The notes beneath the pieces are model-generated. The model did not search any database and was not told the origin of the DNA. It saw only the letters and a list, made by a program, of their open reading frames with translations. A stretch of 64,000 bases of DNA. It comes from Eledone cirrhosa. Its lineage: Eukaryota. Below are positions 1,289-46,433 of this stretch, piece after piece (the stretch's first letter is position 1; every line of letters starts with the position of its first letter). The DNA lies in NCBI GenBank assembly GCA_964016885.1, contig OZ024747.1:87606001-87670000 (forward strand), in the 5' to 3' direction. The position numbers and the translations under genes are program-made.

Positions 1289-1394
1289 CTGTCCATATAG
1301 CGCCGTGCTTCAACATTGTCTAATGCATTAATGAGAACATCCTGGTTTTCAAAGAAAGCATCACTATAGATGGTGTATTCAGTCTGAGGACAGA
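1289..1394 (-). CDS. UBA6: UBA6 exon (106 nt)
   Basis: (V)[34 protein letters not shown](S); [10 protein letters not shown] motif. Confidence 0.96.
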
Positions 1395-1736
1395 CTAAAC
1401 AAGATATGAAAAAGTAGAAGAGAAATGTAAAAACAAAACAAAAAAAAAATAAGAAAGAGATTTTGTATTTTATTTACAAGTAAAAATATTTAGACATGAC
1501 AAAAGATTCGCATGAAAATATGGTGTACATCAAATGATGTTTCCAATGTTGATGGTAAAGAATTTTATGGAAGAGGTTATAATGATTGAATCAAATACAG
1601 TACATAACTGAACCTTATTTTATTCAATTCTGAAAAGATGAAATATAATGCCAAGCCTGGCATGATTTCAACTGTGAATAGATTTAACAAAATATCACAA
1701 AACATTTTGTCTGGTACTCTATTATATGTATATATA

Positions 1737-2352
1737 TGATGGACTCTCCCGTTGATTCGACATATGAAGGTTCAACAGCCTTTTCAGTTCATTGTTTTAT
1801 GTTTATACCTCAAATGGCACCTCAATCCAGCTGCTGATTTACACGTCAATCCGTATTTAGTGCAGGGGACAGGATCTTGAATAGAGCAGGCTGGAATGCT
1901 TGACCGGATTCTGGTGTTAGATCTTATCTCATGAAGGTGGGCTAAACGAGATTTCTCAAAGCTCTTTATACCTTCATGGCAGACGGTTCTCCATCTTTTA
2001 CAGTCATGGCTTCAAACGAAGAAAGAGGTACATTGACAGGTTAAAGATTGTACTTCAGTTTATCCTTATATCAGAGTATTGGCCTGGCTACACTATTCAC
2101 ACCATCCTGGAGCTGACTGTACAACAGTACCTCAGGTGTGTGATCCCCAGGCATCTGTAGAACATGACCAGCCCATCTGAGTTAGAATTGCATCAGAAAT
2201 GACTCAATCCCACCAATGTTGCACCTTGTGAACAGTTCAGCATTGGAGACTGTCAGAAAGTGCATATCCACAGACAGAGCGAAGACAGCGTTTGGGGAAG
2301 ACATCAAGCTTATGTATGTGAATGTGGTAAAGTGTCCATCGCTCAGAGTCAT
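1737..2352 (-). mobile_element. RTE-clade LINE 3' fragment (donor copy)
   Basis: interrupted frame with LRWAGHVLQMP, LLYSQL and a terminal zinc-finger remnant CKSAAGLRCH; TA-rich 3' end near 1737. Confidence 0.8.
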
Positions 2353-2357
2353 AAATA

Positions 2358-2541
2358 TATATCATCATCATTTAATTTTACGTCGGGTTTTCCCTGCTTG
2401 CAAGGGTGGGACGGGAACAGATTCTGGCTTGATTTCTACAGCTGGATGCCCTTCCTAGCACCAACCTCATTTACAGTGAGTGCTGGGTGCTTTTTTGCCG
2501 TGGCACCTCCACGACCACTTTGCAGTGAAATGATAGGGACC
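2358..2541 (-). mobile_element. SINE family A, head-truncated copy followed by (GATA)n
   Basis: near-identical to the body and tail of copies at 5445, 14020 and 15220; (GATA)n at 2553-2598. Confidence 0.85.
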
Positions 2542-2551
2542 ATATGGATGA

Positions 2552-2599
<48 letters not shown>

Positions 2600-2635
2600 C
2601 AATTCTAATAAGGTTTAAACTGATAAACTATTTAC

Positions 2636-2665
2636 CTTTATTTTGATGTGCTTCAATGTTCAGAG
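2636..2665 (-). CDS. UBA6: UBA6 short exon (30 nt)
   Basis: tttcag acceptor, gtaaat donor, phase 1-1; (A)LNIEAHQNK fills the gap between INP and VCP. Confidence 0.9.
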
Positions 2666-3985
2666 CTGAAATTGCAAAAATTAGAATTAGCCTCTCATTT
2701 TTATACCAACCATACAATTTGTAAACCCTAGTATCATTGGTTAATAGATTTGGTTAATGACTAGCTCACTAGATTTTGATGGTAAGAATGACAATGGTGT
2801 GTTTGGGTAACTTGGACAGATTAAATACCCCAAGGAATGTTTTTTTGTTTGTTCAATGCATCAGCTTACCTCTTTTCTTGCTGATGTATATATCTTTCAT
2901 TGATACACACACACACACACACATATATATATGTGTGTGTGTAAACACATAGATATGCACACATATATATATATATTTATATGTTTGTGCACATCTGGGT
3001 ACATCTACAAGGGGTTTCTTCACAGTTTCTGTCTAACAAATATAACTCACATGGCTTTCTTTGACTCAAGGGTAGGGTGGAAAACATTTAACCAAAGTGC
3101 TGCATAATGTGATTGAATCTAAAACCACATGGATGCAAAGTGAACTTCTTAACCACATAGTCATTCCTATACTTGAGGTAAAAATGCCTAAAAGAGATAA
3201 CCCACATTATATTTAACACTTTTTATCCCAAACCACATGAAACCTCAGCTTGTTCTATAATACATCATCATCATTTAATGTCTGCTTTTATTGCTATTGT
3301 TAATGATGATGATGTATCACAAACCAGTAGAAAGCTTTCAATCATAATTTTATGTAATAACCTTTAAGTTACACTACAAACATTAGTTTAATAATGAGAA
3401 AGTTAGTTATTAAATCCCTCCAAAATCTTGACTATTTTCAAAATTAAATGAAAATCATAAGTAGTGTTTTTCATTAGAAATATGCTAACAAGATGGTTAA
3501 ATGGCTTTCATGTCAAGCGTTTTTAAAAAATAGTTCTTGAAAAAAAACCCTACAAGGATCAAGAAGTTCACATTAATCTAGAAGAATGTCACAACCCAAA
3601 CTAAGAATGGATCCAAGATTTCTCATCCAAAAGAAAGGAAAGGAGCTGCTTATCAGATCAGACCAAGAAAACTATGTTTCCATAGGCCTTTCTATCGCTG
3701 ATACTATCTGTCAGTCACAACCCCTGGCTGATGATAGGAGGTATGATTTTAACTCAGAATGCACACAGCCAGAACAGATATAGCAAAACATCATGTCCAA
3801 TTCTTAACAAGTACCCCTGGACTGGTATTTTGTTTACTGAAACCAAAAGGATGGAAAGCAAAGTTGACCTTGGCAAGATTTAATCTCAAAGTACAGAAAG
3901 CTGGAAATAATACCCTGGTATTTAATTTGATACTCTATCAATTCATCACCTGATTCTTATCCAATGTGAAATGTTAAGAACTTAC

Positions 3986-4034
3986 CAGGGTTTATTTCTA
4001 AGACAGAATTGGCTGCTGTTGTACTCTTCGGTTG
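3986..4034 (-). CDS. UBA6: UBA6 exon (49 nt)
   Basis: follows a 91-nt intron; QPKSTTAANSVLEINP; gtaagt donor. Confidence 0.93.
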
Positions 4035-4125
4035 CTACAAGAGAAAACAGTAGAAAGATATTTAGAATTAAAGATACAGTTTAAAACTGTAAAACAGCAA
4101 GAATTTTTAATGAAAAATTACTTAC

Positions 4126-4203
4126 TCTAATATGATGAGGCCGGAAAAGAAACTGTCGGTTTAAATTTGATTTTTCAATCAAATCATTATCTGTGATTGT
4201 AAT
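4126..4203 (-). CDS. UBA6: UBA6 exon (78 nt)
   Basis: ITITDNDLIEKSNLNRQFLFRPHHIR; FLFRPHHI is UBA6-like (UBA1 has FLFRPWDV). Confidence 0.96.
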
Positions 4204-5014
4204 CTAGAAAATAAAAAGTCAAGACATTTAAAATAATAGATTAAGATATGAGAGTGTTGTAATTTGCTTGAAGCATTCTGTAAAGTGTAGAAAAAGGTGT
4301 TTTATTGAAAGGCTACCACAATGCAAACCAGACCTTAATTGTTAAAAATATAACAAAGATGTTGGGATGTTTCCTTGCAGTTATTTATTGGTCCTTATAT
4401 TTCAGGATATTATACGTTCCTCAAAAGAATATCAGATATATTTTATTCTTAAAATATTAATTCTTTTTTCTTTAATTTTGCTTTCATCTTAGCATAAGTT
4501 GCAAGATTCCTCAAATATAAATAGTCATAGCCAACAAGAACAATGCATTTTAAAACTGACTCTTTTAGCAAATAATAAACACATCAACATGAAAAGGGAA
4601 TGGTAGTAATTGTTTAGTTAAATTATTATTACTTTCAATATTGAACTATGAAGTTCATTAACAGATTTTAGTTATATATAACATATACAGCACAGTTTCC
4701 GTTTAGCAAATTTTATTCACAAATTACTGATCAACCCAGGGCTATTATAGAAGACACTTGTCGAAGATGGTACTCAGTGGGATCAAACCTGGAATCCTGA
4801 AATTGTAAAGTGAGCTTCTTAACCACACAGCAAACTGACACACATTGACTGGTGTGTCTTTGCTATTATTAGGGAGTGACTTTAACATGAGATCAATTTT
4901 TACAATAATATACAGCAATTTATATAGTGTAAGAATATATTTCTCTGTGTATTTGATACATATTAACAATTCCCTGTATTTTAAAGTTGAGTAATATAGA
5001 ATAACTTCACAAAC

Positions 5015-5092
5015 CAATCCGTTGCCTTCGGTTGCTAAACCAAGTAAAGCAAAGTTTTTCAACATTTCACATCCTATTGCTCCACATCCAAC
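5015..5092 (-). CDS. UBA6: UBA6 exon (78 nt), ATP-binding GxGxxG loop
   Basis: VGCGAIGCEMLKNFALLGLATEGNGL; GCEMLKNFALLG resembles UBA6 rather than UBA1 (GCELLKNFAMIG). Confidence 0.96.
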
Positions 5093-5439
5093 CTAAAAGA
5101 AAATGAAATAATCCAACATCAGTAAAGTAACATAACTAGCAGATGACATGTACAGTTAGAAGATGATTCTATTCAGATGAGGAGGAGGAGGATTTCTTTA
5201 TTGGGTTCAAGATCATAATGTGGAGGGAACAACATTTTACAACAAAATGCATAATTACAAAAAAGAAAAAAACAACAACAAAACAGCAAGAAAACAGAGA
5301 ATTAAGAGAAACCAAAATAACAGCAGAAAGGCAGAACAAGCAGGATAGGCTAAGTTGACCTAGGCAGGGTTTGAATTCAGGAGGTAAAGCAGTTTGCCTG
5401 ATCTAACAATTCTACCAATCCACCACCATAACATTTTTT

Positions 5440-5700
5440 CATTTCATTTCATTTCATTTTACGTCTGCTTTTCCATGCTTGCAAGGGTGGGACGGGAACT
5501 GATTCTGGCTTGATTTCTACAGCTGGATGCCCTTCCTAACACCAACCTCATTTACAGTGAGTGCTGGGTGCTTTTTTTCCGTGGCACCTCCACGACCACT
5601 TTGCGGTGGAATGATAGGGACCCCAGTCCCTATCATCTCATTTCTACAGCTGAGTAAACTGGAGCAATGTGAAATAAAGTGTCTTGTCCAAGGAAACAAC
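5440..5700 (-). mobile_element. SINE family A, truncated copy
   Basis: same body as 14020-14437; ends 28 nt from the exon donor at 5728. Confidence 0.85.
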
Positions 5701-5728
5701 AGTTGTTCTTATTATGTATGTTACTCAC

Positions 5729-5807
5729 CATAAACAAATGAATCTTCTGTAGTTTCTGTAAGGTATCTTCTCCAATACACAATCTTAACAGATCATAACG
5801 GTCATTT
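5729..5807 (-). CDS. UBA6: UBA6 exon (79 nt)
   Basis: cctag acceptor, gtgagt donor; NDRYDLLRLCIGEDTLQKLQKIHLFM. Confidence 0.94.
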
Positions 5808-6547
5808 CTAGGAGACAACAAAAATTAAACTTTACACATTATTTTATAATTTGAGATAAACATTACAACAATGTTTTGCAAAGAAATAACCTTTTCTTCT
5901 CCTGTTAAAGAAACAATTCAATATCAGACCATTTGTTCTAAGTACTGGTTTCAGGCTGCTCAAGCAGTCACAGCTTAATTTGCTCAATATAGAAATCAAA
6001 TTTCTCTCAACAAACTCCCTGGCTATCTTTAAAATAAATGCATCCAGACTCACATTATTCAATGTAGTTTTCTTTTTTGTGGTGATAGGATGCCATTTGA
6101 AGGAGATTTTGCCGAGTCCTATTCTAAGCAGGACAAATGATTGCAAAGGAAACTCCCTTGCTGTTGTCTGTGTTTATAGTCTTATATAGATACATTATTT
6201 AAATCATTAAAAAAAATTTTTTTTTTAAATTAAAGAACTCTGGCAAGTAACAGATATTGGGGGTTAATAAGAATGATTACTCTTTTTGATATCGAACCAC
6301 ATAAAACAGCCCCTATGATACAAAAAGTTTGTTTTAAAGTGTTTATTTAAAAACCTTCCTTTATAATTTTATGCAAGAACCTTTGTTAAATTATATTCCA
6401 AACACCACCTTAATAATGAGAAATTTAGTAACATTACTAAATTGCCCACAATTTATTATTTTCAAAATTATTTGAAAATTATATGTGGTGTTTTTCATGG
6501 TAACAATAGAGGCTAAAAATATTGAATGAAATCCACTGAAAACCTAC

Positions 6548-6609
6548 TTTTGATGGAAGTTGTCATCAATGGCATCTTCTAAAATCACATCTGTTACATC
6601 CAAATACAG
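6548..6609 (-). CDS. UBA6: UBA6 exon (62 nt)
   Basis: tacag acceptor, gtaggt donor; LYLDVTDVILEDAIDDNFHQ(K). Confidence 0.9.
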
Positions 6610-7724
6610 CTGTAAAGAAGAAACCCACAAAATACATTTAATAAAATTATTACAAAGTTTGGCTAGACGATGATATTTCATTCTTTACAAAGATAACAAA
6701 GTTAAGAGGACTTGCCCAAGATGTCAGACAATGATACATCACCAGCTTTTGGAACATTATAGGTAGACACTCTAATTGACAATAATTCTAAGGTGGAGTT
6801 TCAGAATAAGCCATAATTTTTTTCTAAATCTGAGGATGAACCATTGAAAAGTATGGGTGTAGCACCTTTGGTGCCCCTTCTGTAATGGTATCAGGATTGC
6901 AAAGTGAACTTCTTAATGGCGACAAGGAAGGTCGCTTGACCACGTCTTGACCAAACAAAATATAATATTTTCACCAAAAACTGCCCTTTAAACACATGTC
7001 AGATGGATTACAATATTCATTATTACAATTACTTTGACTGTTCCCTGACAACTAGTACCAGTTTCAAGATAGAATTATCTTAACGAAGTATATACAATTT
7101 GACTTGATTTTCCCCCAACAAACCACGTGTGGACATGGACGGGGAAATAAGGAAAAAAAAACAAAACAAATCACTACATCCCTTAAGGATCGCAGTAAGT
7201 ACTCCACAAAACATATAAACAACAATATACACACAGATTTATATACAGATATATACCATATGCATATACACACACGTGAAAAGAAACCACACTATTTCGT
7301 GTGAGACACTATACCGGCCAATTTTACCAATTTACATTGGTAAAATATTTCTTAACATTGACTTCGCTTCTAACCCACATACACCTTTTAATTATATATA
7401 TATACTAGCAGCTGAAAGTTAATAATTTGAAAAAAAAAATATTATTGAAAGTTTATTATAAAGAAGCAGTATCAGGGGGTAAAAAACAAAACAAAAAAAA
7501 ACGTTATTTCGCTGTTAATAAACAACTGCCTTCTACAGTACGTTTCATTTAACTTACGCAGCATATTTATTTGTTTACATGCACAGACTCTTCTGTACAC
7601 ACACAACATTTAGGAAAACGGAAACAAAATACACAAAAAAACGAAACAAAAAAACAGACATTTTATTTCTATCGTAATCAAGTGTGCTAAACCTATATTG
7701 TTTACATTCTGTGTTTTTCTACGG

Positions 7725-8957
7725 ATGGGTAGAAATAACAAAATTGCCATGGTGATATCCATCGATGAAGTATGCGACAAAACTGGTCGATGTCCCAAAA
7801 TAGAACATTGCCCGGAAGATCACACCTGCCATATCCGTACGGAACCCGAAAACTCGTTCCGTAATCGTTGGGTCGAATGTGGAACCTGTCGCATCTCTGT
7901 CTGCCTTCAATGCGCCACAGGCTTCCGGAAGATCCCAGGCCAAAATAAGAAACATCATATTGCTACGATGGATAGACTCTGGGAGATGGTCCAGCTAACA
8001 AACTGGTCCTTTCAGTGCCTGGACTGTATGCCTGCTTCTCCCATTGCTGCGGAACAACAACAACAAAGACCGAAGATCGTGTCTTCTACCATTGTTCCTG
8101 AACAACAACAACAAAAACCGAGGATCGTGTCTTCCTCTACCATTGTCCCTGAACAACACCAAAAACCAACGACCGTAGCTTCTGCTACTACCCCCGTTGA
8201 AGGACTTCATCAACAACAGCAACCCATGTCTTCCTCACCCGTTACTTTTCAACAACAACAACCGACGACTGTGTCTTCTACCATGCCTCTTGAAGGAGAA
8301 GAACAACAACAAAAACCGACCGTCAATACGGAGTTTGAGGAAATACGGCAAATGATTTCCGCTTTAAGTCAAGAAATAGCGGAAATAAAATTAAGCGTTC
8401 GTGTAGAACCCCACAATGAGGGATCTTACTGGAGTGCCTTGTTAAAAAATCTCCGCGTACCTCATGTTGAACCTAGACGCATTGAGAATGCCACTGAATC
8501 TGCAAACCACGAAGTGATTGCCATTGGTGTGCCGGAAGACATAGTTGATCTTCAGGCATTTGCTGCCAGTTCATCCAAAGACCTGGGCTGTGCTCCCGCA
8601 AAGGGTGCTCTACGCCTTGGCCGACCAGGCCCGAAACCCAGGTTAATTAGACTGTCGTTTTCAAACTCAACTGAGGCACTTTCATACCTTGTAGCCTCTG
8701 ATAAAGCTAGGTGTGAAAGTCGGATTGCTTTCCAAACACGTCCTGGTCTTCCACCTGATGTCCACCCAAAGTTGCGTGCTGCAGCTTCCCTAAACCACAG
8801 CTCGGCAGAACATGAAAGCTTCATCCTACGAGATGATGGGCAGATATGGAAGTTTGTTAAGGCTGGCGAATCATGGAAAAGAGACACCAGCTGGTCTGAA
8901 AACACTGTACCCACAACAACTGACAATAAAGAAACTGAAAAAACTCTGGGAAACTAA
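7725..8957 (+). CDS. LINE ORF1 protein: PHD-like Cys/His finger, Q/T-rich repeats, coiled coil, probable RRM-like C-terminus
   Basis: intact ORF of about 410 codons; WVECGTC-x4-CLQC...FQCLDC; EFEEIRQMISALSQEIAEIK; RLGRPGPKPRLIRLSF; ends GN*. Confidence 0.85.
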   Translation: MGRNNKIAMVISIDEVCDKTGRCPKIEHCPEDHTCHIRTEPENSFRNRWVECGTCRISVCLQCATGFRKIPGQNKKHHIATMDRLWEMVQLTNWSFQCLDCMPASPIAAEQQQQRPKIVSSTIVPEQQQQKPRIVSSSTIVPEQHQKPTTVASATTPVEGLHQQQQPMSSSPVTFQQQQPTTVSSTMPLEGEEQQQKPTVNTEFEEIRQMISALSQEIAEIKLSVRVEPHNEGSYWSALLKNLRVPHVEPRRIENATESANHEVIAIGVPEDIVDLQAFAASSSKDLGCAPAKGALRLGRPGPKPRLIRLSFSNSTEALSYLVASDKARCESRIAFQTRPGLPPDVHPKLRAAASLNHSSAEHESFILRDDGQIWKFVKAGESWKRDTSWSENTVPTTTDNKETEKTLGN

Positions 8958-9013
8958 ATCAGAACAACCTGCCATCCCCTGCACATAATCATAGACTGGA
9001 ATCAAAGTACAAA

Positions 9014-11838
9014 TTGTTGTCCTTGAATGCACGTAGTCTATGCAATAAGATTCATCTTTTTGACTCCTACGTCAAAAGTATCAACCCGGACTTCATTACA
9101 GTCACGGAAACTTGGGCACATCCCTTACTCTGTGATGAGGTTTTCAGCATGACTGGCTACAACCTGTTTCGTAAAGACCGTATTAATCGTTGTGGTGGTG
9201 GTGTAATGGTCTACATTCGGTCAAATCTGTTGGCAATTCCTTGTGCTGATTTGAACCAATCACAGCAGGAAGTTTTTTTCTGCGATATACGTATGACCAT
9301 GTCAACACTGCTACTTGGAGTCGTTTACCGTCCCCCAAATTACCATCAGGACACTCAACTTTGTGATATCCTCAGAGCTGCTGCCAGGAAGACAGCCACT
9401 TATGTTTTCATTGCAGGTGACTTCAATTACCCTGAGATTGACTGGGAGACCTTTCGTTGGCCGCCAAGTGCAAATGACTTCCTTGAGCTGGTGCTGGACT
9501 CGAGTTGGTCCCAGGTGGTCACCTCCCCAACGAGAGGTGACAACACTTTGGACCTACTCTTCACCACTACTCCTGAAACAGCTGGTGCTGGACTCGAGTT
9601 GGTCCCAGGTGGTCACCTCCCCAACGAGAGGTGACAACACTTTGGACCTACTCTTCACCACTACTCCTGAAACGGTCATTAGTGTTACTGCTGAGGAACC
9701 TTTAGGTGACTCTGATCATGCTATGATCATTGCCAATCTATCCCTCATGGGCAGTAACAAGAACCACAACCATCTCCAAACTGCTCACTTTGACTGGAAT
9801 AAAGCAGACTGGAACTGTTACTGCACCGGCCAAACTGGCTTGAGTTCTACGACTCTGGAGATGTCAACACTACTCCAGAACATCCTGAGCTCAATATGGA
9901 CATCATGTGCAGCATCGGTGCCACGTAAGCGGAAAAAACATCCCAAAAGCGCAATTTGGGAGACTGCAGCAGTCCGTCTTGCCAGAAAAGAACGGCGCAA
10001 TGCTGAACGCGAGTACAAACTTCACAAATCAGACATTAATAGGAAGAGGCGAAATAGATCGTCCAACCACCTCAAACAGGTGACAAAAAAGGCAGTGCTT
10101 CAATTTGAGCAGCGCATAGCAACCAGCCCTGACAGTAAGGTGTTCTGGAAGTATGTTCACTCAAAGCAGAGGCCTCACTCTCCAGTTGGTCCTCATCGCA
10201 ATCCCCACACAAGCCAGGTTACTGACGTCCCCAAGGAATGCGCAGAGCTCATTGCTGAATGCTATGCAGGCATTTTCACTATTGAAGACCAGAGTGTACC
10301 ATCTCCACCACCTATGACACCGGACTCTATTACAACCATGGAATTTACACCTGCAATGCTGCGACGTCACCTAAAAAATAAACGCAACCATGCCTCTCCT
10401 GGTCTTGATGGTGTTACGTACCTGCTTCCTTCTACACCAGTTATCACGCTTCTTCCAATTCTGTCTGAACAACAGTGCTACTCCAGAACAGTGGAAAACT
10501 GCCAGTGTCATTCCTCTGTTCAAAAAGGGTGACCGCACATCACCTGTGAACTATCGTCCAGTCAGTCTTACTAGTTGCATCGCCAAACTGATGGAATCTT
10601 GTGTCAGAGAAACACTTTGGAACTTCTGGAGCTCTCACAGTCTTATCCGGCCCTCGCAATTTGGATTTATCCCCAACACCAGCTGCTGTGATCAACTTAT
10701 AGAGTTTCTTGAGGACATCACCCGGATCACTGATGGCGGTTCATGGGTGGATGTTCTTTACCTTGACTTTGCGAAGGCCTTCAATTCTGTGCCACACAAA
10801 AGGCTTATGGCAAAACTCTCTGCAATGGGTGTGAAGGATGATCTTTTTAACTGGTTGAAGTCCTTCATTCTCAGTCGAAGAGAGGTAGTCACGGTTCTGG
10901 GACAGCATTCCTCACCATATGAGATGTCATCTGGTGTACCACAGGGATCTGTTCTTGGCCCCCTTTTGTTTGTGGCATATATTAATGACATAGATGCCAA
11001 CTTAAGGAATGCCACAGTACTAAAGTACGCAGACGACATCAAGCTGTACCTTGAGATAAAAAGGACAGATCCTGAACACTATAGATCTTGCTTGCAGTCT
11101 GACCTGGACACAATGCAACAGTGGATCTCAGACTGGCAACTCAAGCTAGCTGTGGACAAGTGCACCACCATGCATTTTGGGAGTAAAAACCCAGCGTCCA
11201 CATACTCCCTTCACAGCACTAATATCAAGAAGTCTTCCTGTGAACGTGACCTGGGCATTACGGTCAGCAGCGATTTGCGTTGGATGAGGCACGTCTCTAA
11301 AATTGTCAAGAGGGCCGAGGGTGTCTTAGCATCACTCAGCAAGACCTTTGTCAGCCGCTCTCCAGATATCTATTTAAGGCTGTATACAGCTATGGTGCGA
11401 CCACACTTAGAATTTGCATCACCAGTCTGGAACCCCTATCTTGCTCAGGACATTGACCGCCTGGAAACTGTTCAGAGACGTGCAACCAAGCGAATACCCT
11501 CCATCAGGCATCTACCATACTCTGAGCGCCTTGCTTCCCTGGGCATGGATTCATTGAAGCTCCGACGCCTGGCAACTGACTTGGTAAACACCCACAAAAT
11601 TGTTAACCATGTTGCCAACAACAACCCTGAGTACCTTTTCGATTTCCATGTGTCTAACACACGTGGACATGCCCACAAAGTAAGAAAACAGCACAGTTCC
11701 CATGACTTTCGGAAACATTTTTTCACGCTCAGAGTTGCTGAAGCATGGAACAAACTACCTGCATCAGTTGTTAGCTGTCGAGACACTGCATCCTTTAAGG
11801 CCTCCATGCTTCCCGAGATCCGCGAACAGAACAGCTAA
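9014..11838 (+). pseudogene. LINE ORF2 (AP endonuclease plus reverse transcriptase), frameshifted
   Basis: APE motifs LNARSL, TETW, YRPP, GDFN, SDH; RT motifs YRPVSLTS, QFGF, LDFAKAF, GVPQGSVLGPLLF, YADD; C-terminal TRGH...VAEAWNKLP; split over three ORFs. Confidence 0.93.
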
Positions 11839-12725
11839 CACATACACACATGTACTTCCCTGACATTTGTGTATTATTCTATGTACTATATTGACGAGTT
11901 GTAGTGCACCTGAGCACTTTACACAATAATTTCATTATTATTATTATTATTATTAACCATTCAGTCATGCTTGTGTTCACATATACACACACACACGCAC
12001 ACACATATATATTAGCAAATGAGGTATATCAAGCCACAAATTGTATATAAACAATAAACCCAATGAGACACTTTCACCCTCCTAGTGCAAACATTGATTG
12101 TTCCTCAGAAATGACTTTTCAACAATAAGTTTTATTAAGGTATAATCGTCAATATAATATTACAAATACAAAAAGAAAAAGAAAGAAAAGGGAAAGGAAA
12201 AAAGAAAGAGAAAAAAAACACACAAACAAATCATACAGACATCTAGGACCACATACAACAAACCACTGCCAGAGCAAAAGATAACAATTGTAACACATTA
12301 TACTATAACTACCAGAAGTTGTGACTGGAAGATAGTATCAGCAATGGAAAAAACAATGGAAACAGTTTCTTTGGTCCGATCTGATGATCAACTTCTTTTT
12401 TCCTATTATATATTTGCAGCAGCTATTCACAGTAACAATAAATGTTTGTTTAACACAGGTTTACTGAAATTTACAAATTACTACCATCAGATAAATTACC
12501 ACATTTCTAATAAATATAACATAATCCATTCTGTTTTAGATAGTATTAAGTAAACATTTACATAGCACTTGGTAAAATTTACATGGTATTTAGAAAAAAA
12601 TTTGCACAATTTTTGTTAACATTTAATATTTGACAATAACTTTCTAAGAATTTGACATTTAAATACATATGAGAATATATAAATATACCTATAAATATAC
12701 CTATAAATATATATATATTACTTAC

Positions 12726-12869
12726 CCATTGGCTCAATGGGGTAAATTTACCAGTGATTGCTTTGAGAACTTCTTGAGCCATAAATCCTCCAAGAATTGC
12801 ACAAAGAGGTGGAAAGCAACCTTTACAGGTTAATGACAGTTTCTTTATAAGGTTTTCATCAAGTTCCCC
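12726..12869 (-). CDS. UBA6: UBA6 exon (144 nt)
   Basis: ttcag acceptor, gtaagt donor; GELDENLIKKLSLTCKGCFPPLCAILGGFMAQEVLKAITGKFTPLSQW (AQEVLKAxTGKFxP motif). Confidence 0.96.
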
Positions 12870-13500
12870 CTGAAATTTGAACGGTAAGTTTTTAAAATGA
12901 TTTACTAACTTAAAATGAAACAAGAGGTAAACAATACACAAGGGGATCTTCCACTGGGCTAAGGGGGCAGGGAATGGTAGGTGCATCTATACAGGCTAGG
13001 GGTCAGGGGAAGGAAATAATGTGAGGATAGGACTGGGTAATGGGTAGGAGTAGAGTAGAAGTAAATGAATAAATAGATAAATGAATTAGTAAGTAAATGG
13101 GTGAATAGGATAAAATAAAATAGAATTTGAAGTATTTAAAAATATATAATTAAGTTAATAATATGGAAGGGTGACTTCTAGTTAAATGTGTGTATTATGT
13201 GTGCATACTGCATGCATTACATACACTCACAGACACACATATACACCCACACATATACATATATATATACAGAGAGAGAGGCATATATATATGTGTGTGT
13301 GTATGTACATATATATATATATGTACATATATACAAGCACATAAGTGTTCATACTCATGCCATACAAATCATATATATGTAATTGAAGTTACATTTACAT
13401 AAAGACAACAAAAGTCAAATTATTTGAGGTAGTCTCTATACACCAAATGATGGAAGAAATGAAGTTTTGCTTCGGTGCAGACCCTTACAATATTATTTAA

Positions 13501-13817: not shown

Positions 13818-14019
13818 CTAGCAGGCACAAAAATAAAATAAGGAAATTATATTTTTCATGTTTATAAAATTTACTAAAATCAGTATTCTTTGTGTATGAT
13901 GCTGGATGCTAATTTTATTTATTGTACTCCATCACACACCAAAACATGCTCCTACAATTATTTCACTTTTATTGAAAATAAAACAGAACTAAAGTAGATT
14001 ACCTAAAAGTTATATATAT

Positions 14020-14433
14020 ATATCATCATCATTTCATTTTATATCTGCTTTTTCCCTGCTTGCAAGGGTGGGACAGGAACTGATTCTGGCTCGATTTCTA
14101 CAGCTGGATGCCCTTCCTAACACCAACCTCATTTACAGTGAGTGCTGGGTGCTTTTTTTGTCATGGCACCTCCACGCCCACTTTGCAGTGGAATGATATG
14201 AACCCCAGTCCCTATCATCTCATTTCTACAGCTGAGTAAACTGGAGCAATGTGAAATAAAGTGTCTTGCTCAAGGAAACAACACATCACCCGGTCTGAGA
14301 ATTGAACTCACAACCTTTCGATTGCAAGGACAATGCTCTAACCACTAAGGAAACAACACATCACCCAGTCTGAGAATTGAACTCACAACCTTTCGATTGC
14401 AAGGACAATGCTCTAACCACTAAGCCTTGTGCC

Positions 14434-14437
<4 letters not shown>
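14020..14437 (-). mobile_element. SINE family A, full length, with a 75-bp internal duplication of the tRNA head
   Basis: reverse complement of the 15220 copy; 14272-14346 is repeated at 14347-14421. Confidence 0.88.
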
Positions 14438-14641: not shown

Positions 14642-14765
14642 AATGTTACTTGTTTTATATGGAAAAAAGTGGCTTGAAACGCCAGTTTTTTAGAGAAGTA
14701 ATTTGATTGGTTGGTCAATAAGTATAATAAATTTCGCGCCAGTTCGCGTTACAAAGTTCTTCAAA

Positions 14766-14800
<35 letters not shown>

Positions 14801-14920
14801 CTCAGGTTGTTTTTTCATATATGAAATTTATTATACTTATTGACCAACCAATCAATCAAATTACTTCTCAAAAAACCTGGCGTTTCAAGCCACTTTTTTC
14901 CATATAAGACAAGTAACATT
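14642..14920. repeat. Long inverted repeat (~95 bp arms) enclosing G34; MITE/foldback-like
   Basis: 14642-14735 is the reverse complement of 14823-14920; poly-G at 14767-14800. Confidence 0.9.
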
Positions 14921-15132: not shown

Positions 15133-15219
15133 CTATATATATATATATATGACTATCCAGGAAGCTCCAACCATTAAGGTTGTCTTTTTTCCGGGTATGT
15201 CAATATTTATTTATAAAAT

Positions 15220-15555
15220 GGAGGCACATGGCTTAGTGGTTAGAGCATTGGCCTTGCAATCGAAAGGTTGTGAGTTCAATTCTCAGACCGGGCGATGTGT
15301 TGTTTCCTTGAGCAAGGCACTTTATTTCACATTTCTCCAGTTTACTCAGCTGTAGAAATGAGATGATAGGGACTGCGGTCCCTATCATTCCACTGCAAAG
15401 TGGTCGTGGAGGTGCCACGGCAAAAAAGCACCCAGCACTCACTGTAAATGAGGTTGGTGTTAGGAAGGGCATCCAGCTGTAGAAATCAAGCCAGAATCTG
15501 TTCCCGTCCCACCCTTGCAAGCAGGGAAAACCCGACGTAAAAATAATGATGATGA
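15220..15555 (+). mobile_element. tRNA-derived SINE family A (chimeric copy)
   Basis: A box TGGCTTAGTGG, B box GAGTTCAATTC, internal hairpin atgatagggac/gtccctatcat, (GAT)n tail. Confidence 0.88.
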
Positions 15556-16250
15556 TATATATTTATGACTCTGAGCCATGGACATGTTACCACATTCACA
15601 TACATAAGCTTGATGTCTTCCCCAAACGCTGTCTTCGCTCTGTCTGTGGATATGCACTTTCTGACAGTCTCCAATGCTGAACTGTTCACAAGGTGCAACA
15701 TTGGTGGGATTGAGTCATTTCTGATGCAATTCTAACTCAGATGGGCTGGTCATGTTCTACAGATGCCTGGGGATCACACACCTGAGGTACTGTTGTACAG
15801 TCAGCTCTAGGATGGTGTGAATAGTGTACCCAGGCCACTACTCCGATATAAGGACACACTGAAGTACAATCTTTAACCTGTCAATGTACCTCTTTCTTCG
15901 TTTGAAGCCATGACTGTAAAAGATGGAGAACCGTCTGCCATGAAGGTATAAAGAGCTTTGAGAAATCTCGTTTAGCCCACCTTCATGAGATAAGATCTAA
16001 CACCAGAATCCGGTCAAGCATTCCAGCCTCTATCTATTTATCTATCTATCTATTCATCCATATGGTCCCTATCATTTCACTGCAAAGTGGTCGTGGAGGT
16101 GCCACGGCAAAAAAGCACCCAGCACTCACTGTAAATGAGATTGGTGTTAGGAAGGACATCCAGCTGTAGAAATCAAGCCAGAATCAGTTCCCATCCCACC
16201 CTTGCAAGCAGGGAAAAAAGTGGACGTAAAATGAAATGATGATGATGAAA
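15556..16250 (+). repeat. Inverted, circularly permuted duplicate of 1888-2575 plus the second half of the SINE
   Basis: 15378-16029 is the reverse complement of 1888-2540 with few substitutions; 16030-16080 is the reverse complement of about 2525-2575. Confidence 0.92.
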
Positions 16251-17067
16251 TGAAAACAAATCTGTATTTATCTGATGAAAGCGCACCATAATTTGCCTTG
16301 GTTGCCCTTGAAATATGTATAATAAAATAAATATGGTTTTATAAATATAGTTTCCATTTATTAATATATTGTGTATTTACTCCACTAATCTGTTGAGTGC
16401 TTTATATCAGTTATAAAAATGTTTAAGTTTGTTGAATCCCAACAAATTAAATATAACCTCTACATATATATATATATTAACTAGTCTGTGTACTATTATA
16501 ATATTATTCTGCAGCATTAAAAGAATGCTTATACCTACAGTAGATCCAAAAGTTCCACCCCCATAAAAGTGTTGCCTGGGGCAGACAGTTCCCTCGTCTC
16601 CCTCTAGCTACGCTAGTGGTGTGTGTGTGTGTGTGTGTGTTTCTGTCCATCAATGCCAGTGTTTGACAAATAGAAATAGATAAAATAAGCATTGGAGTTG
16701 ATATGATTAACTAAATTAAAAGGCAGAGTCACAGCATGGTCATAACTTGACTGAAACTAGTAAAAGAGTAAAAGAAAGAAAAAAAAGAGTACATATATGT
16801 ATATAATATTAATTTTTTTAAGAATATCTGAGCTTTTACTTTAAGGGTTTATACTTATGTTTTGTTAGGTGTGTATGTTTTCTTAATTACAGTTAGAGAG
16901 GGGGTAATATGTTTCCCTATGTATCCATCATTGCTACGATACAGCCCTACTTTATGGGGGTTATATGTGCTAATTTTAATTCTGTTTCTGGTATCTTTGC
17001 AATAAGATAATGTCTGCATGTAAAAATACTAAAATCAACATCAACAAGACAAGAGAATCCTACATAC

Positions 17068-35979: not shown

Positions 35980-36190
35980 TCCAACTATCAGTCACTCTCT
36001 GACAGGTTTGCAGTGGAGCCCATAGCAATGGAGACTTCTGGTGTCCTTGGCCCTAGGGCCACTTTTCTACTCACCACCAATGGCACAGAGTTGGCTACCT
36101 GCAGGTGTAAGCCCCACAATTTGGAATGGCTCTTCCTGCGTGTTTCCCACACCATCCTCTGGGAAAACAACTCTATTCTGTCTGCCAGGG
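35980..36190 (+). mobile_element. Relic of a restriction-like-endonuclease non-LTR element (CRE-clade-like C-terminus)
   Basis: YQSLSDRFAVEPIAMETSGVLGPRATFLL...EWLFLRVSHTILWENNSILS resembles the Y...F.P.A.ET.G..G...QR.S....GN pattern. Confidence 0.65.
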
Positions 36191-36479
36191 CCACAGGGCG
36201 GCCAGAACATTGGCCCCCATTTGCTCATAATAGTGAGAGATGGCGAGAGCGGGAGAGATGGAGGCAGTGAGAGATGGCGAGAGCGGGAGAGATGGAGGCA
36301 GTGACAGTGGGAATTTGGTCCCTTCGTGTTCGGAACTGGTGTATATGTTTCACAGACACACACTCACATTGATAATAGCTAACTAGCAGATATGACACAG
36401 TATATTAAATAGAGAATGTATTCTTGGGGTAAGGTACAATAATACAGTTAGCAATAGCTTCTATGATCATTAGTATTCC

Positions 36480-36870
36480 CTCTTTCATTATATATAGTAA
36501 CTTCACACCTTTGGTACCTCTATGTTCAATAGTACTATTCTGCTATCACTATACATAGTAACCTCACCTCTATGGTATCTCTTTGTCCAATAGTATGGCC
36601 TTCTTTCACTATAACCTCACCTCACCTTTCAATATTACATTACCTCCCTGCTACCTTTATGTTCTGTAGTACTGCCCTCTTTCACTATACACTATAACCT
36701 CACTTCTCTGGCATCTCTATGTTCTATAGTACTACCACTATATACAGTAGCCTCCTCTCACTTCCCCTCTCTATCATTATACATAGTAATCAGTTACCTC
36801 ATCTCTTTGGTATTTCTGTGGCCAATAGTATGTCCTCTTCCACTACATATGTGTAGCAACATTACATCTC
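36480..36870. repeat. Degenerate ~60-65 bp tandem repeat
   Basis: recurring actatacatagtaacctcacctct...tgtccaatagtat motifs. Confidence 0.6.
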
Positions 36871-38639
36871 TTTCTGATATTGGAAAATCAATCAGTCAAT
36901 AAATCAATAAATGAACACGACTGCTTAGACAGTGTGACCAATAGTTGGGTGGTTGTATTTTATTTTTTATTTTTTTTACAGTTCAGTTATTGCAATTTAG
37001 AAGGTAGTTTAAATGAAATTGTATGGTGATATTTCTCTCAGACTATCCTAGCCATTAAGACTATCTTGATTGGTAATAATATATTTCTCTCGTATATCAT
37101 GAATTATCATACTGAAAAGTATGAGAGTTTAATAAATTGATGTTAACCTTTGTGTTACCATATTTTTAATGAAATGCATGGTTTCAATCAATTTTGAAAA
37201 TATGGATGAATTCAGTAATAAATTTAACTTCATTTTTATGCTGTTTGCAACATTACTTTAAAAGATCCTAAATAAAATTAAGCTGCTTTATTGTAAAAAA
37301 AAATGCTTGTCTTTTGAGGTTATGAAAATAGAAAAGGAAGGGAAAGGTAAGGGCTCTGGGGTCACAAAAAAATGGGAGGGAAAGGGGTGGGTGATGGGCT
37401 CTATGTCAGGTTTTAATCTAAATATGGTCCCTTTAAAGCAGGCAGTTTTGTACAATAAAACCAGATGAGTTAAATATATTTTTCATTTGTTGTTGTTTTT
37501 TTTTATTGGTTGCCATCTTGGGGCACCCCTTCCAAGGTTGATAATATTGACCCCAGCTCATATTTCAGTCTTGTATTTATTTTACTTTGTTTTTGTCAAA
37601 ATGCTAAGTTAGAAGACATAAGATGACACAAAATAAACAACACTAAGTTTTAGACAGGATTAGACATAAACACAGACACACATACATATATATTTCAACT
37701 GAGAAACAAAACTGACAAAAACAAGTTTATTATTAGCTGATAAACAGCCGTTTTCAAAGTTTAGGGTTCATGGGAAAATTAATTTAAATAAAAGGGGTTC
37801 TTAGTACTGAAAATGTTGGGAATCACTGATACAGACTATGAGTATTTTGATATTGTTATATGCCATATATTAGACAAGACAGTGATTTAGATATTAAATA
37901 TACACTCAGCAGATTTAACATTATCTTATTTGTGTAAGTAGGGACTTAACTGTTACATATTGACTATGATAGTTTTAACATTATACAGAGGATCTTCATT
38001 GTACATGGTCAAGTGGTTCGCCAACATCATTATTATCACTGTTTGATGTTTTTTTGCCATACTTGCATGGGTTAGACAGGCTGCCCTATACTGAGATCAA
38101 ACTGGTCAAGTGACTGATGTCCTGCCTGTATACTCTGTTTTGGGCTTGGTTTCTACAGCTGGATGCCCTTCCTAATGACAACTACTTTACAGTATGAACT
38201 AGAAGCATTTTATTGTGACACAAGCACCTTATAGGATGGACTGGGTGCTTTTAATTATAGCACCAACACTACCACCTTACAAACTCCCATGTTATTAAAA
38301 AAAACATGTATATTGAAGGCCCTTATATAAAAGTACCTAGGTATGTTGATGTTTTGAAGATGGCACAACTTCAGTTTCTCTGGAGGCTGATAAAACTCAG
38401 GAAAAGAGTGATGGCAGAAAGGGCTACAGTTTTCTGCTTTACATTGGGTGATACAGTTCAGTTTTATGTGGAAAAAAACATTTAGAGTTTACAGCTTTTT
38501 AAACAATTTTTTAGAAAATATTTTCTAACTGTATATATTCGAAGTTGCTCTATTTAAAACCACATAAGATGTAGGCTTACTGCAGTTTAAAGTTTTAATA
38601 TATTATATAACTGACAAGGTACATGCATATATATATTAA

Positions 38640-38860
38640 CCCTTTAGCATTTACATTATTCGATAATTACTATTGTATTTTCATGGTTAACACTTTATTT
38701 CACATAATTATCTCACATAATATCGAATCTAGGAGATTTTGATATTATTTATTTTGAGAAAAATACCTTAACATAAGTATGGGCAGCTGGTTACAGCCAG
38801 TTTAAACAGAAAGAGGTGAGAGAATTCTGGCAAGATACGGCTGGTTTAGATGCTAAAGGG
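38640..38860. mobile_element. TTAA MITE, best-preserved copy
   Basis: TTAA|CCCTTTAGCAT...ATGCTAAAGGG|TTAA. Confidence 0.85.
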
Positions 38861-39299
38861 TTAAATTATAAAAGATTCATCATTGTTATACATTATTTTT
38901 TGATAATATTTCATTAGAAAGAATATTGATGGTGTAGTTGTTTAGTACCTGGCTAGCCCAGATTGAACAGACCTGTAATACAAAGACATTTTAGTCATAA
39001 ACATCCAGCCTTTTTGTATATATAGGATCATATTATCCAATGTGCCCGGCAGTTTTTCTAGAAAGTAGGATGTGAGAGTGTGATTTCTGGGAACAAATGA
39101 AAAAACTACAAAACCAATATAACTTACCGATTCAAACCAGCATCTACGTCTTCTTCATGGAGGAAGAACTGAGTGCCCAAGTCAGCTACTGTAGCAACTT
39201 TGTCATCATATATTGTCAGAGACTAGGAAAAAACAGGGAAATAATAATATCATTAATAGTAACAGATTATATGTGCTAAGAGGATGGAGACAGCATTAG

Positions 39300-39900
39300 A
39301 ACAAAAGAAAATAACATGGTATGGTACATAAAAAATTCCACAGAACCACTGTTGTTGGAAGTAAGAAGGTCAGGGCTGTGCAAAATAGAAGGTTGTAAAG
39401 AACAAACACAGCACAACCATTTGAAGATGGATGAAACTGAAAGTAGATGGACAAAAGAATTTATGGACAATTCCATAGAGATGTTGAAGATAGGACAGAC
39501 AGAGAAAAAAGGTGGTTATGGATGGCTAAAAGTGATCAAAAGCCAGAAACAGAAGCCTTAATCTGTGCTGTTCAAGAACAAGTACTAAGAATTAACTACA
39601 TCAAATATAGAGTAGAATACAAAGCAGAAAGTGATGAGAGTAAAATGTTTGTAGCATGAATGGAGAAATTGTATGGCATATTACCAGTCAATGTACACCA
39701 CTAGCTCAGAAAGAATATAAGAGACATCACGACAACATAGTAAAGATAGTCCATTGGGCACTTTGTGGCAAATATGTACTTAATAGAGCAGAAAAGTAGT
39801 ACAAACATAACCCGGAGGGCATTATTGAAAATGATGGTGCAAAGATCCTGTGAGACTTTGTGATACAGTGTGACCAAGAGATTGAGCATAGGAGATCTGT
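39300..39900 (+). mobile_element. Decayed R4/Dong-clade non-LTR retrotransposon, zinc knuckle and start of the RLE domain
   Basis: GQFHRD...KPETEALICAVQEQVLRINYIK...HITSQCTPLAQKEYKRHHDNIVKIVHWALCGKY...IENDGAKILxDFVIQCDQEIEHRR. Confidence 0.82.
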
Positions 39901-40219
39901 GAACAAAACTAAGTGCAGAATCCCCTAAAATAGAAAAACAATTATCAGAAAAATAAAAAGAACAAACAAAAAAAAATCAACAAACTAAAATTCTGCTTGA
40001 CACTGGTTATATACTGAAAACTTTCCGTCCTAGTCTGTTGTCCCAGTTTTCAAAAAGGGAAAGAAGTCCCTTGTAGTGAATTACCATCCTAGGTCTTATT
40101 GAATTTTGAATTATAAATGTTCTGCTACTATAACTTCACTCCTGAAGAACAAAGGGCAAAAATGTGCATTGAGCTTAATTCATCTTACCAATGGAAATAG
40201 TGAACTATTACACTATAAC

Positions 40220-40269
<50 letters not shown>

Positions 40270-40759
40270 AAAAAAAATGTCATGACAACCCAAGATGCCT
40301 TTTTCTGTTCATTTATGGAAAGAGAAAGAGAGAGAGTAACTCTTTAGAAATGATTATGTATTAATATAACATATTTCTTGAGAATATGTCCAAATACTTA
40401 TGTGATGCATTAACAGTGGTGAGATGATAGCTGATGATGATGATGGTAGCAGAAAAATTACAAGTTTATAAGGTGGGGTTAAACTGAAAAGAAAAAGATA
40501 GGCATTCAGAAATAGAATATTTTAATCATTTTATTCCTACCCTTGTTATCTTGAACTTTTAAGTTTCTTAATTTTTAAAGCACTTTCAAATGAGGACTGC
40601 TACAGCCATTTCAATAGCTATATATATTTTTCTTTTTTCTTTTCTTGGATTTTGTCATTGAACTGACTGGGACTTTCCAAGGTAGTGTTTTAAGCCAGAG
40701 GCCTTTCATGATGTCTACTCTTTTAGTCACCTTTTCCAACATGCAGATATATAATATAT

Positions 40760-41060
40760 CTATTCTAAAAACTAGGATACACTGGGAATAAAAGAAATCA
40801 AATGCTGTGTGCAGGAAAGAAGACTGCAATGGTATGGACATGTGATATGCATGAAGGACAACAGCTGTATAAAAAGGTGCAGAGCACTCGTGGTCATAGA
40901 GTGCCTTGAAAGATGAAGACCTATGAAGATGTGGATTGAAACAATAAAGTCTAACATGGCTCAGCTGAACCTCTTTATGGAGATGACACAGGACTGAGAC
41001 CTCTGGCACTACGATGTACAATAAAAGACATGAGTAGACAACCCAACCCAGCATGTGCTT
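40760..41060 (+). mobile_element. RTE-type LINE 3' relic
   Basis: LGIKEIKCCVQERRLQWYGHVICM...RPMKMWIETIK. Confidence 0.7.
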
Positions 41061-42727: not shown

Positions 42728-43332
42728 TCTAAAGACAGCCATAATATTTTATGAAGAAGTCATTACATCTAAAGACAGTCATAATATTTTATGAAGAAGA
42801 CATTACATCTAAAGACAGCCATAATATTTTATGAAGAAGTCATTACATCTAAAGACAGTCATAATATTTTATGAAGAAGTCATTACATCTAAAGACAGTC
42901 ATATTATTTTATGAAGAAGTCATTACATCTAAAGACAGTCATATTATTTTATGAAGAAGTCATTACATCTAAAGACAGCCATAATATTTTATGAAGAAGT
43001 CATTACATCTAAAGACAGTCATAATATTTTATGAAGAAGTCATTACATCTAAAGACAGTCATATTATTTTATGAAGAAGTCATTACATCTAAAGACAGTC
43101 ATATTATTTTATGAAGAAGTCATTACATCTAAAGACAGTCATATTATTTTATGAAGAAGTCATTACATCTAAAGGCAGTCATAATATTTTATGAAGAAGT
43201 CATTACATCTAAAGACAGTCATATTATTTTATGAAGAAGTCATTACATCTAAAGACAGCCATAATATTTTATGAAGAAGTCATTACATCTAAAGACAGTC
43301 ATAATATTTTATGAAGAAGTCATTACATCTAA
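42728..43332. repeat. 40-bp minisatellite, about 15 near-identical copies
   Basis: unit aaagacagtcataatattttatgaagaagtcattacatct, exact 40-nt period. Confidence 0.97.

Positions 43333-43516: not shown

Positions 43517-43551
<35 letters not shown>

Positions 43552-43646: not shown

Positions 43647-43690
<44 letters not shown>

Positions 43691-46346: not shown

Positions 46347-46433
<87 letters not shown>

What the first reader, a model, noticed from the sequence alone, without database searches (positions are those of the whole stretch)
15220..16250. Footprint of a ~690 bp DNA circle that integrated into a SINE by a single crossover
Seen in sequence: the donor locus reads [RTE fragment from 1888] - [SINE-A part] - catatggatgaa(TAGA)n. 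Read on the minus strand, the 15.2-16.2 kb locus has [SINE-A part] - catatggatgaa(TAGA)n, joined directly to aggctggaatgc (donor position 1888) - [RTE fragment] - [SINE-A continuing to its tRNA head]. The donor's end is therefore fused to the donor's start (circular permutation), and the insert is flanked by two SINE bodies. Diagnostic bases are exchanged reciprocally. The inner SINE has donor-type cgtcgggtttt/ggaacagattc but family-type gtggaatg...gcagtccc. The outer SINE has non-donor ccactttttt/gatgggaactg but donor-type gtgaaatgatagggaccatatgg. Scattered substitutions between the copies argue against an assembly artefact, and the RTE continues to its natural end (1737) only at the donor. 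Inference: an extrachromosomal circle closed at a GATA/atagag micro-match and re-entered the germline by Campbell-type recombination, using SINE homology as the landing site.
Basis: partly seen in the sequence, partly recalled or inferred. Interest (0 to 1): 0.85.

Follow-up and report, generated by a model that had tools for sequence, protein, structure and literature searches.

The report
Permuted nearby copy inside a SINE
A 690-base piece of old transposon DNA sits, copied and circularly reshuffled, inside a short mobile repeat 13 kb from its intact source; it was likely written there by local DNA-break repair rather than by a free DNA circle, and both kinds of event are already known in other animals.

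Summary
The structure is real. Donor 1888-2576 reappears, permuted and inverted, at 15377-16246. Its new junction occurs once in the genome. The whole 15219-16252 block fills one empty site of a young host repeat, with an AAAA duplication, so one SINE was expanded by about 690 bp. Rare donor markers switch reciprocally, with both switch points inside donor 2420-2527. The copies differ by 9 changes in 466 bp, 4 in the donor and 5 in the copy, which argues against an assembly artefact.

A circle is not needed. Copying from the nearby donor during break repair, with one microhomology jump, would give the same product. Location favours this: at least 14,432 SINE landing sites exist genome-wide and 3 lie within 14 kb of the donor, so a free circle would land here about 2 times in 10,000 or less. 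A circle made and recaptured locally is not excluded (about 20%). The same topology is published for human SVA elements (PMC9132208), and local repair-mediated duplications are published too (PMC2671141). Reads did not confirm the junction. Verdict: new member of a known kind.

The parts
1737..2353 (-). Donor: 3' fragment of a multi-copy LINE (the RTE label is recalled, not tested); complete to its natural 3' end only here
   Evidence: Other genome copies are 78-91% identical, against 98% for the acceptor copy. A longer family copy (L005) carries Pfam RVT_1. Family copies run continuously across position 1888.
2361..2541 (-). Donor SINE, 5'-truncated at 2541, carrying 6 rare letters
2542..2596 (+). 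Donor truncation junction (11 bases) followed by a (TAGA)11 array
   Evidence: the junction occurs at 2 places genome-wide
15141..15218 (+). Left arm of a young host repeat, ending in the AAAA target duplication (15215-15218)
   Evidence: In 19 of 19 host copies this arm runs straight into the right arm; joint 15218 to 16267 in reads of 4 of 4 runs
15219..15563 (+). Inner chimeric SINE: recipient's head half (Pol III A- and B-box-like motifs at 15229 and 15274) joined to the donor's tail half
   Evidence: Donor letters at 15533, 15531, 15499; family letter at the site matching donor 2528; boxes matched with recalled patterns; ARAGORN finds no tRNA gene
15564..16029 (+). Copy of donor LINE 2353-1888
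   Evidence: 9 substitutions in 466 bp: 4 donor-derived and 5 acceptor-derived when polarised on 28 family copies
16029..16063 (-). New junction (TAGA array joined to donor 1888, 1-base overlap) plus the copied TAGA array and truncation junction
   Evidence: Unique in the genome; overlap measured
16064..16252 (+). Outer chimeric SINE: donor's truncated 5' part joined to the recipient's tail half
   Evidence: Donor letter at 16077; family letters at the three donor-specific tail-half sites; 3 private C-to-T changes
16253..16477 (+). Second AAAA of the target duplication (16253-16256) and right arm of the host repeat
   Evidence: 40 other scored places, the best 96-98% identical over about 221 bp, from 2046 candidates; empty site

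Best explanation
A permuted copy of donor 1888-2576 lies inside one SINE 13 kb from the intact donor, and it was likely written there by homology-primed repair of a break in that SINE, with no free circle. Shown: a SINE occupies a single host site with a 4-base target duplication, it is now split into two reciprocal chimeras, and about 690 bp of permuted donor sequence lies between them. Inferred steps: (1) The recipient SINE broke within the 108 bp matching donor 2420-2527. (2) The tail-side end invaded the inverted donor SINE and copied past its truncation into the TAGA array. (3) Because the donor SINE is truncated, the new strand then ended in non-SINE sequence and could not anneal back. 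(4) It re-primed about 690 bp back on the same donor at 1888, on 1 base of overlap or on ATAGA with a 3-base loss, and copied the LINE piece and the tail half of the donor SINE. (5) It annealed to the head-side end through SINE homology. An equivalent version has both ends copy the donor outward and then be end-joined (SDSA plus end joining). Both versions leave the donor intact. The product is probably neutral intronic DNA.
For: Location: 3 other copies of this SINE lie within 14 kb of the donor, against at least 14,432 exact sites genome-wide, or roughly 36,000-55,000 after scaling by the 4 of 10 and 6 of 23 copies that carry the exact word. A well-mixed circle would land here with probability about 2e-4 or less. 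Local templating is the rule for repair-mediated duplications: 824 of 1,136 human cases have the donor within 5 kb (PMC2671141, section 6). Synthesis from one or both break ends followed by end joining is the commonest product in a fly germline assay (PMC2895639, passages). The donor is intact and in cis. The copy stops inside a microsatellite, and a TAGA-phase 5-mer lies within 10 bases of the junction, as at 3.9% of LINE positions. Another recent two-copy local inverted duplication (177 bp, 99%, 877 bp apart) lies nearby. By inference, a circle would also prefer its own 100%-identical 690-bp locus to a 94-95% identical SINE of 180 bp or less.
Against: No marker separates copying from a crossover: one shared switch point at donor 2466-2527 needs only 1 post-event change, and so does one staggered arrangement. 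13 kb and 690 bp lie outside the proximal class in PMC2671141 (within 5 kb, maximum 619 bp), and the passages I read there describe no permuted case. A nearer inverted SINE (14008-14349, under 1 kb from the recipient, 93% alike) was not the template used. The model needs a backward jump or an end-join in place of simple annealing. The same topology was read as circle integration in PMC9132208. Of 2 other local duplication candidates checked genome-wide, 1 was a multi-copy repeat. Reads did not confirm the junction.
Confidence: 0.62

Rival explanations
1. A 690-bp circle (donor 1888-2576, closed by end joining) formed from a sister chromatid or homologue and integrated into the recipient SINE by one crossover. 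To fit the location it would have to be made and recaptured locally.
For: It predicts every junction seen, and one shared switch point fits with 1 post-event change. The identical topology is described for SVA_B/SVA_D chimeras flanking a permuted human duplicon (PMC9132208, section 7). Short microhomology at circle closures is reported (PMC7450558, passages).
Against: Landing within 14 kb has probability about 2e-4 or less for a free circle. Published circle-type duplications lie 0.09-58 Mb from their source or on other chromosomes and mostly lack homology at the insertion site (PMC7450558). No excision scar and no tandem copy at the donor in this assembly.
Confidence: 0.2
2. The insert formed while the recipient SINE was inserting. 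The nascent SINE cDNA, or the insertion break, invaded the nearby donor SINE and captured its flanks in permuted order.
For: The ages cannot be separated: host repeat 4 private changes in 281 sites, recipient SINE 7 in about 343, post-duplication 5 in 466 (Fisher p 0.38-0.76). The whole block sits within one target-site duplication.
Against: It needs three template switches in one insertion. The point estimate for the recipient SINE (2.0%) is older than for the duplication (1.1%), though not significantly.
Confidence: 0.08
3. A donor allele first gained an ordinary head-to-tail duplication of 1888-2576. Ectopic gene conversion entering at one SINE copy and leaving at the next then wrote one unit into the recipient SINE.
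For: It gives the same product with one homology-driven event; the new junction has the form of a tandem-duplication junction.
Against: The junction exists once in the assembly, not at the donor. No second haplotype of the acceptor flank is held. It needs an extra allele that has since been lost or is unsampled.
Confidence: 0.07
4. The locus is an assembly chimera, or a copy of a mobile SINE-LINE composite.
For: No listed read or contig spans the junction. A third SINE-LINE join at the same LINE position exists on contig C21.
Against: Each copy carries its own derived changes (4 and 5). The new junction has 1 base of overlap, so repeat collapse cannot make it. The block fills a clean empty site. 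The C21 join has an 88%-identical match with indels and lacks the truncation and TAGA junctions. Only 3 such joins match genome-wide.
Confidence: 0.03

Closest known systems
SVA-recombination-mediated insertion of the lcr16a circular intermediate in hominines (PMC9132208; section 7 read in full, plus passages)
   Same: Identical topology: a permuted duplicon flanked by two reciprocal chimeric retroelements, with the recipient's target duplication at the outer ends and an intact donor.
   Different: There the duplicon is tens of kb long, carries genes, uses full SVA elements and seeded a gene-family expansion. Here it is 690 bp of repeat DNA, the shared homology is 180 bp or less, it lies 13 kb from the donor and it is single-copy.
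Repair-mediated duplications, by SDSA capture of proximal DNA inside transposons (PMC2671141; section 6 and passages)
   Same: A short single-copy insert inside a transposon, templated from nearby DNA; two-ended capture joined at microhomology is described.
   Different: Most donors there lie within 5 kb and proximal inserts are 619 bp or shorter. That screen excluded repeat-derived inserts, and I saw no permuted case with long homology at both outer junctions.
Circle-mediated segmental duplications (PMC7450558, passages; PMC7188851, first quarter of the text and passages)
   Same: The A-B/C-D order flip and a non-homologous closing junction with 1-2 bases of microhomology.
   Different: Those are 22-3918 kb long, at least 0.09 Mb from the donor, and reported without homology at the insertion site. 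PMC7188851 itself cautions about its same-chromosome cases.
SDSA plus end joining in the Drosophila P{wa} assay (PMC2895639, passages), and template switching between inverted repeats in DUP-TRP/INV-DUP (PMC11293582, passages)
   Same: Homology-primed synthesis ended by a microhomology or end-joining junction; inverted repeats in cis, including Alu pairs, start the event.
   Different: The fly assay uses the sister allele as template. DUP-TRP/INV-DUP has two junctions and amplifies the interval between the repeats. Here there are three junctions, and the 12.6-kb interval is single-copy and not inverted.

Membership tests
Circle-mediated duplication | Donor order A-B-C-D appears as C-D-A-B in the copy | tested here: met
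   recovered as the only case in 694 kb
Circle-mediated duplication | Single new junction joining the donor's end to its start | tested here: met
   Unique in the genome; 1-base overlap
Circle-mediated duplication | An extrachromosomal circular intermediate existed | not testable with these tools
   Sequence alone cannot show it; no excision scar or tandem copy at the donor
Circle-mediated duplication | Insertion site free of the donor's position, as expected of a diffusing circle | tested here: not met
   13 kb from the donor; 3 of at least 14,432 sites lie this close
Repeat-homology (SVA-type, Campbell-like) integration | Two reciprocal chimeric repeats flank the insert | tested here: met
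   3 donor markers in the inner copy only, 1 marker plus the truncation junction in the outer only
Repeat-homology (SVA-type, Campbell-like) integration | Recipient's target-site duplication at the outer ends | tested here: met
   AAAA on both sides; 19 of 19 host copies have the empty site, 16 with the exact letters
Repeat-homology (SVA-type, Campbell-like) integration | One crossover point shared by both chimeras | tested here: inconclusive
   Both switches lie in donor 2420-2527; shared and staggered points fit equally well
Repair-mediated duplication (SDSA capture) | Insert interrupts a transposon and has one other source in the genome | tested here: met
   98% match only to the donor; all other LINE copies 91% or less among 40 scored of 729 candidates; junction counts
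Repair-mediated duplication (SDSA capture) | Donor intact and close in cis (class boundary 5 kb in PMC2671141) | tested here: inconclusive
   Intact and in cis, but 12.8 kb away, beyond the published proximal cut-off
Repair-mediated duplication (SDSA capture) | No retroposition hallmarks (new tail or target duplication) around the insert itself | tested here: met
   The insert's ends lie inside SINE homology; the only target duplication belongs to the recipient SINE
Repair-mediated duplication (SDSA capture) | Empty orthologous site (plain SINE) in a relative | tested here: inconclusive
   No second haplotype in the assembly; laid runs are swamped by repeat reads
Mobile SINE-LINE composite element | Many near-identical copies with the same internal junction | tested here: not met
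   3 joins genome-wide: donor, acceptor, and one at 88% identity on C21
tRNA-derived SINE | Pol III A and B boxes in the head, high copy number, simple-repeat tail | tested here: met
   Recalled box patterns match at 15229 and 15274; 14,278 exact words; no intact tRNA gene
RTE clade of LINEs | Clade placement of the reverse transcriptase | not tested
   RVT_1 found in 2 of 3 frames scanned from copy L005, which shows a LINE-type element; RTE is a recalled resemblance

The most novel reading that the evidence does not exclude
A sub-kilobase DNA circle re-entered an invertebrate germline by crossing over within 180 bp or less of 95%-identical SINE sequence, about when that SINE had just inserted. 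Tens of thousands of SINE copies would then act as landing pads that copy and permute neighbouring DNA.
Probability: 0.2. Interest if true: 0.5.

Novelty: new member of a known kind. Interest (0 to 1): 0.32.

Why it matters
The event itself is one probably neutral intronic duplication of repeat DNA. Its value is as a clean worked case. Circular permutation with reciprocal chimeric flanks is usually read as proof of a DNA circle, yet here the position argues for local copying. In a genome with tens of thousands of near-identical SINEs, the donor-to-acceptor distances of all such inserts would measure how often true circles re-enter the germline. That question is open, and this locus supplies a search template and a positive control. 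A side effect: the copy creates a 654-bp, 98%-identical inverted repeat across several exons of an E1 ubiquitin-activating-enzyme-like gene, which could pair in the pre-mRNA (untested).

Tried and rejected
Read confirmation: 9 runs were listed and 4 laid on 15155-16610. Repeat-family reads swamp the stretch, 16023-16064 was skipped as a repeat, the tables are truncated and no listed piece spans the block. This neither confirms nor refutes the junction or a pre-insertion allele. The best holders may also be the assembly's own sample.

Second haplotype: a search with the acceptor's right flank found no alternative copy.

Further permuted inserts: 1 candidate in 694 kb holding 23 SINE matches, namely this locus. 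That is 0.02% of the genome, so it gives no rate. One close same-strand SINE pair was inspected and is unrelated; a second such pair (near -152 kb) was not inspected.

Local duplication base rate: 10 candidates in 694 kb, 5 of them within 13 kb including this locus. I checked 2 of the other 4 genome-wide: 1 is two-copy and 1 is a multi-copy repeat.

Mobile composite: rejected.

Back-spliced RNA circle: rejected by inspection, as the junction has no GT..AG ends on either strand.

Two successive inversions followed by recombination with a normal homologue: possible on paper, but it needs three events with breakpoints that nearly coincide.

Dating the recipient SINE against the duplication: not resolvable.

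Earlier findings of the scan: nothing returned.

Literature: 7 searches listed no report of this locus or of a sub-kilobase SINE case in an invertebrate; most hits were seen only as listings, so this is not proof of absence. No supplements were opened.

Full report
1. Observation. Reading both loci and blasting them against the window confirms the arrangement. On the minus strand the acceptor reads: SINE tail half, donor truncation junction, TAGA array (16246-16029 = donor 2361-2576, 94.5%), then directly donor 1888-2541 (16029-15377, 98.0%), then the SINE continuing to its head at 15219. Genome-wide pattern counts show that the truncation junction occurs only at the donor and the acceptor, the TAGA-to-LINE junction only at the acceptor, and the donor's tail-half SINE haplotype only in the donor and the inner SINE. 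Among 40 scored of 729 candidate LINE places, the acceptor is 98% identical to the donor and all others are 78-91%. Family copies run through position 1888 without a break, so the donor holds the ancestral order and the acceptor is derived.

2. New anatomy. The two flanks of the block are the two arms of one young host repeat. All 19 fetched host copies join the left arm directly to the right arm, 16 with exactly the letters seen here and 3 with one- or two-base differences. The same joint appears in reads or contigs of all 4 laid runs. The filled site repeats AAAA on both sides. The 1034-bp block is therefore one SINE insertion of about 340 bp enlarged by about 690 bp, which equals donor 1888-2576. 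Both loci lie between exons of an E1 ubiquitin-activating-enzyme-like gene on the minus strand. The exon near 12.7 kb matches UBA1, UBA7 and UBA6 chains in the PDB. Recalled E1 motifs hit at 118,964, 5089, 4191, 1320 and -1227 in window coordinates, all on the minus strand, so the interval between donor and acceptor is not inverted.

3. Markers. Against 30-31 family copies, donor-specific letters at 2385, 2387 and 2419 are shared with the inner SINE only. The letter at 2528 is shared with the outer SINE only; it is in 154 exact words against 14,278 of the family type. The outer copy has three private C-to-T changes (donor 2412, 2449, 2465) and the donor has one private letter (2458). A scan of switch positions puts both switches between 2420 and 2527. 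One shared point at 2466-2527 needs one post-event change, and so does one staggered pair. The reciprocal exchange is real, but a single crossover is neither shown nor excluded.

4. Age and artefact check. The LINE parts differ at 9 of 466 sites, 4 derived in the donor and 5 in the acceptor when polarised on 28 family copies. That is about 1% per copy and is what a true, somewhat old duplication gives. The donor SINE is older than the duplication (6 of 181 against 4 of 466, p = 0.03). The host repeat (4 of 281), the recipient SINE (7 of about 343) and the post-duplication acceptor (5 of 466) cannot be told apart. Reads gave no independent confirmation.

5. Mechanism. At least three routes give this exact product: a circle with one crossover; break repair that copies the donor with one backward jump, or from both ends followed by end joining; and conversion from a tandemly duplicated donor allele. 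The sequence cannot separate them, but position can. At least 14,432 exact SINE sites exist, and perhaps 36,000-55,000 copies, since only 4 of 10 and 6 of 23 sampled copies carry the exact word. Three lie within 14 kb of the donor, and none of comparable length and identity in the 30 kb upstream. A freely mixing circle would land here with probability about 2e-4 or less. A window reader can only notice local cases, but that does not remove the weight of this figure: for this event, free circles would have to outnumber local copying events about a thousandfold to be favoured. Local templating is documented. In human, 824 of 1,136 inserts in transposons have the donor within 5 kb, and 20 are chimeras of two donors, attributed to two ends joined at microhomology (PMC2671141, section 6). 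In the fly germline, incomplete synthesis from one or both ends followed by end joining is the usual product (PMC2895639, passages). The donor's truncation offers a reason for the odd outcome (inference): a strand copied past 2541 ends in non-SINE sequence and cannot anneal back. The junction has 1 base of exact overlap, and a TAGA-phase 5-mer just upstream is as close as at 3.9% of LINE positions, which is weak support for microhomology-guided re-priming. Against this reading: 13 kb and 690 bp exceed the published proximal class, a closer inverted SINE was not used, and a circle made and captured at the same place is not excluded. I put repair copying at 0.62, a circle at 0.20, insertion-coupled capture at 0.08, a tandem allele at 0.07, and artefact or mobile composite at 0.03.

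6. Multi-copy unit: the SINE-to-LINE join matches 3 places genome-wide. The third (L030, contig C21) aligns to the acceptor at 88% with indels, has a full SINE, and lacks the truncation and TAGA junctions. It looks like an independent join at an AT-rich LINE site, though its origin is unexplained. Marker switch: present. Long reads: not available. Scan for more cases: only this locus in 694 kb.

7. Comparison with what is known. PMC9132208 (section 7 read in full; passages) describes the same topology for two human SVA elements and reads it as circle integration by repeat recombination, noting that it may or may not be unique. PMC7450558 (passages) and PMC7188851 (part 1 of 4 and passages) use the order flip as the sign of circles for large human duplications, the former without homology at the insertion site. 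PMC11293582 (passages) shows template switching between inverted repeats in cis, including Alu pairs, finished by microhomology. The cattle and tilapia cases were seen only as citations in these papers. The locus works like the SVA case in topology and like a repair-mediated duplication in scale and position. It meets the order-flip and chimeric-flank features of the circle class, fails the expectation of a position free of the donor, and leaves the defining intermediate untestable. The RTE label is recalled; only RVT_1 was shown. The organism was not identified. My impression of a cephalopod-like genome is untested (one search was seen as a listing only).

8. Verdict. A real, well-resolved permuted duplication inside a SINE, and a new member of a known kind, most likely a scar of local break repair. 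Interest 0.32. It would deserve about 0.5 if a circle were shown, and it is useful as the template for a genome-wide test of how often permuted inserts come from circles.

Noticed in passing
window 1290-12986 (exon motifs at 1320, 4191, 5089, about 12,700), with further motif hits at -1227 and 118,964: Minus-strand exons of an E1 ubiquitin-activating-enzyme-like gene (UBA1/UBA6 family). The 654-bp, 98% inverted repeat formed by donor and acceptor brackets several of these exons and could form double-stranded pre-mRNA.
   Followed up: partly
L030 (G000:C21:20136296-20137200): A full SINE joined to the same position of an 82-88% identical LINE copy as at the donor, with no LINE sequence beyond the SINE head. 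A recurrent join site or a reverse-transcriptase template switch; unexplained.
   Followed up: partly
window 15141-15218 and 16257-16477; L055-L073: Young host repeat (97-98% between copies) ending in (AT)n. At least 6 of 19 copies (L059, L060, L067, L069-L071) carry short inverted self-copies at their variable end. Family not identified.
   Followed up: no
L142:223-399 and its partner 877 bp away (G000:C7:87486223-87487453): A 177-bp, 99% identical inverted duplication present only twice in the genome; a candidate repair-mediated duplication.
   Followed up: partly
window 14642-14920: A 98-bp inverted repeat (93%) around a run of about 35 G; may be a local fold-back copy or an assembly weak spot.
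   Followed up: no
window 14272-14424: A 78-bp tandem duplication inside the head of the SINE at 14008-14437.
   Followed up: no
window 7614-11838: A near-intact LINE with long frames resembling endonuclease and reverse-transcriptase domains (by eye). It has a 94-bp exact tandem duplication at 9486-9673 and a 98.9% copy of one part 326 kb away.
   Followed up: no
window 42717-43332: A tandem array with an apparent period of 40 or 80 bases and about 96% identity between copies.
   Followed up: no
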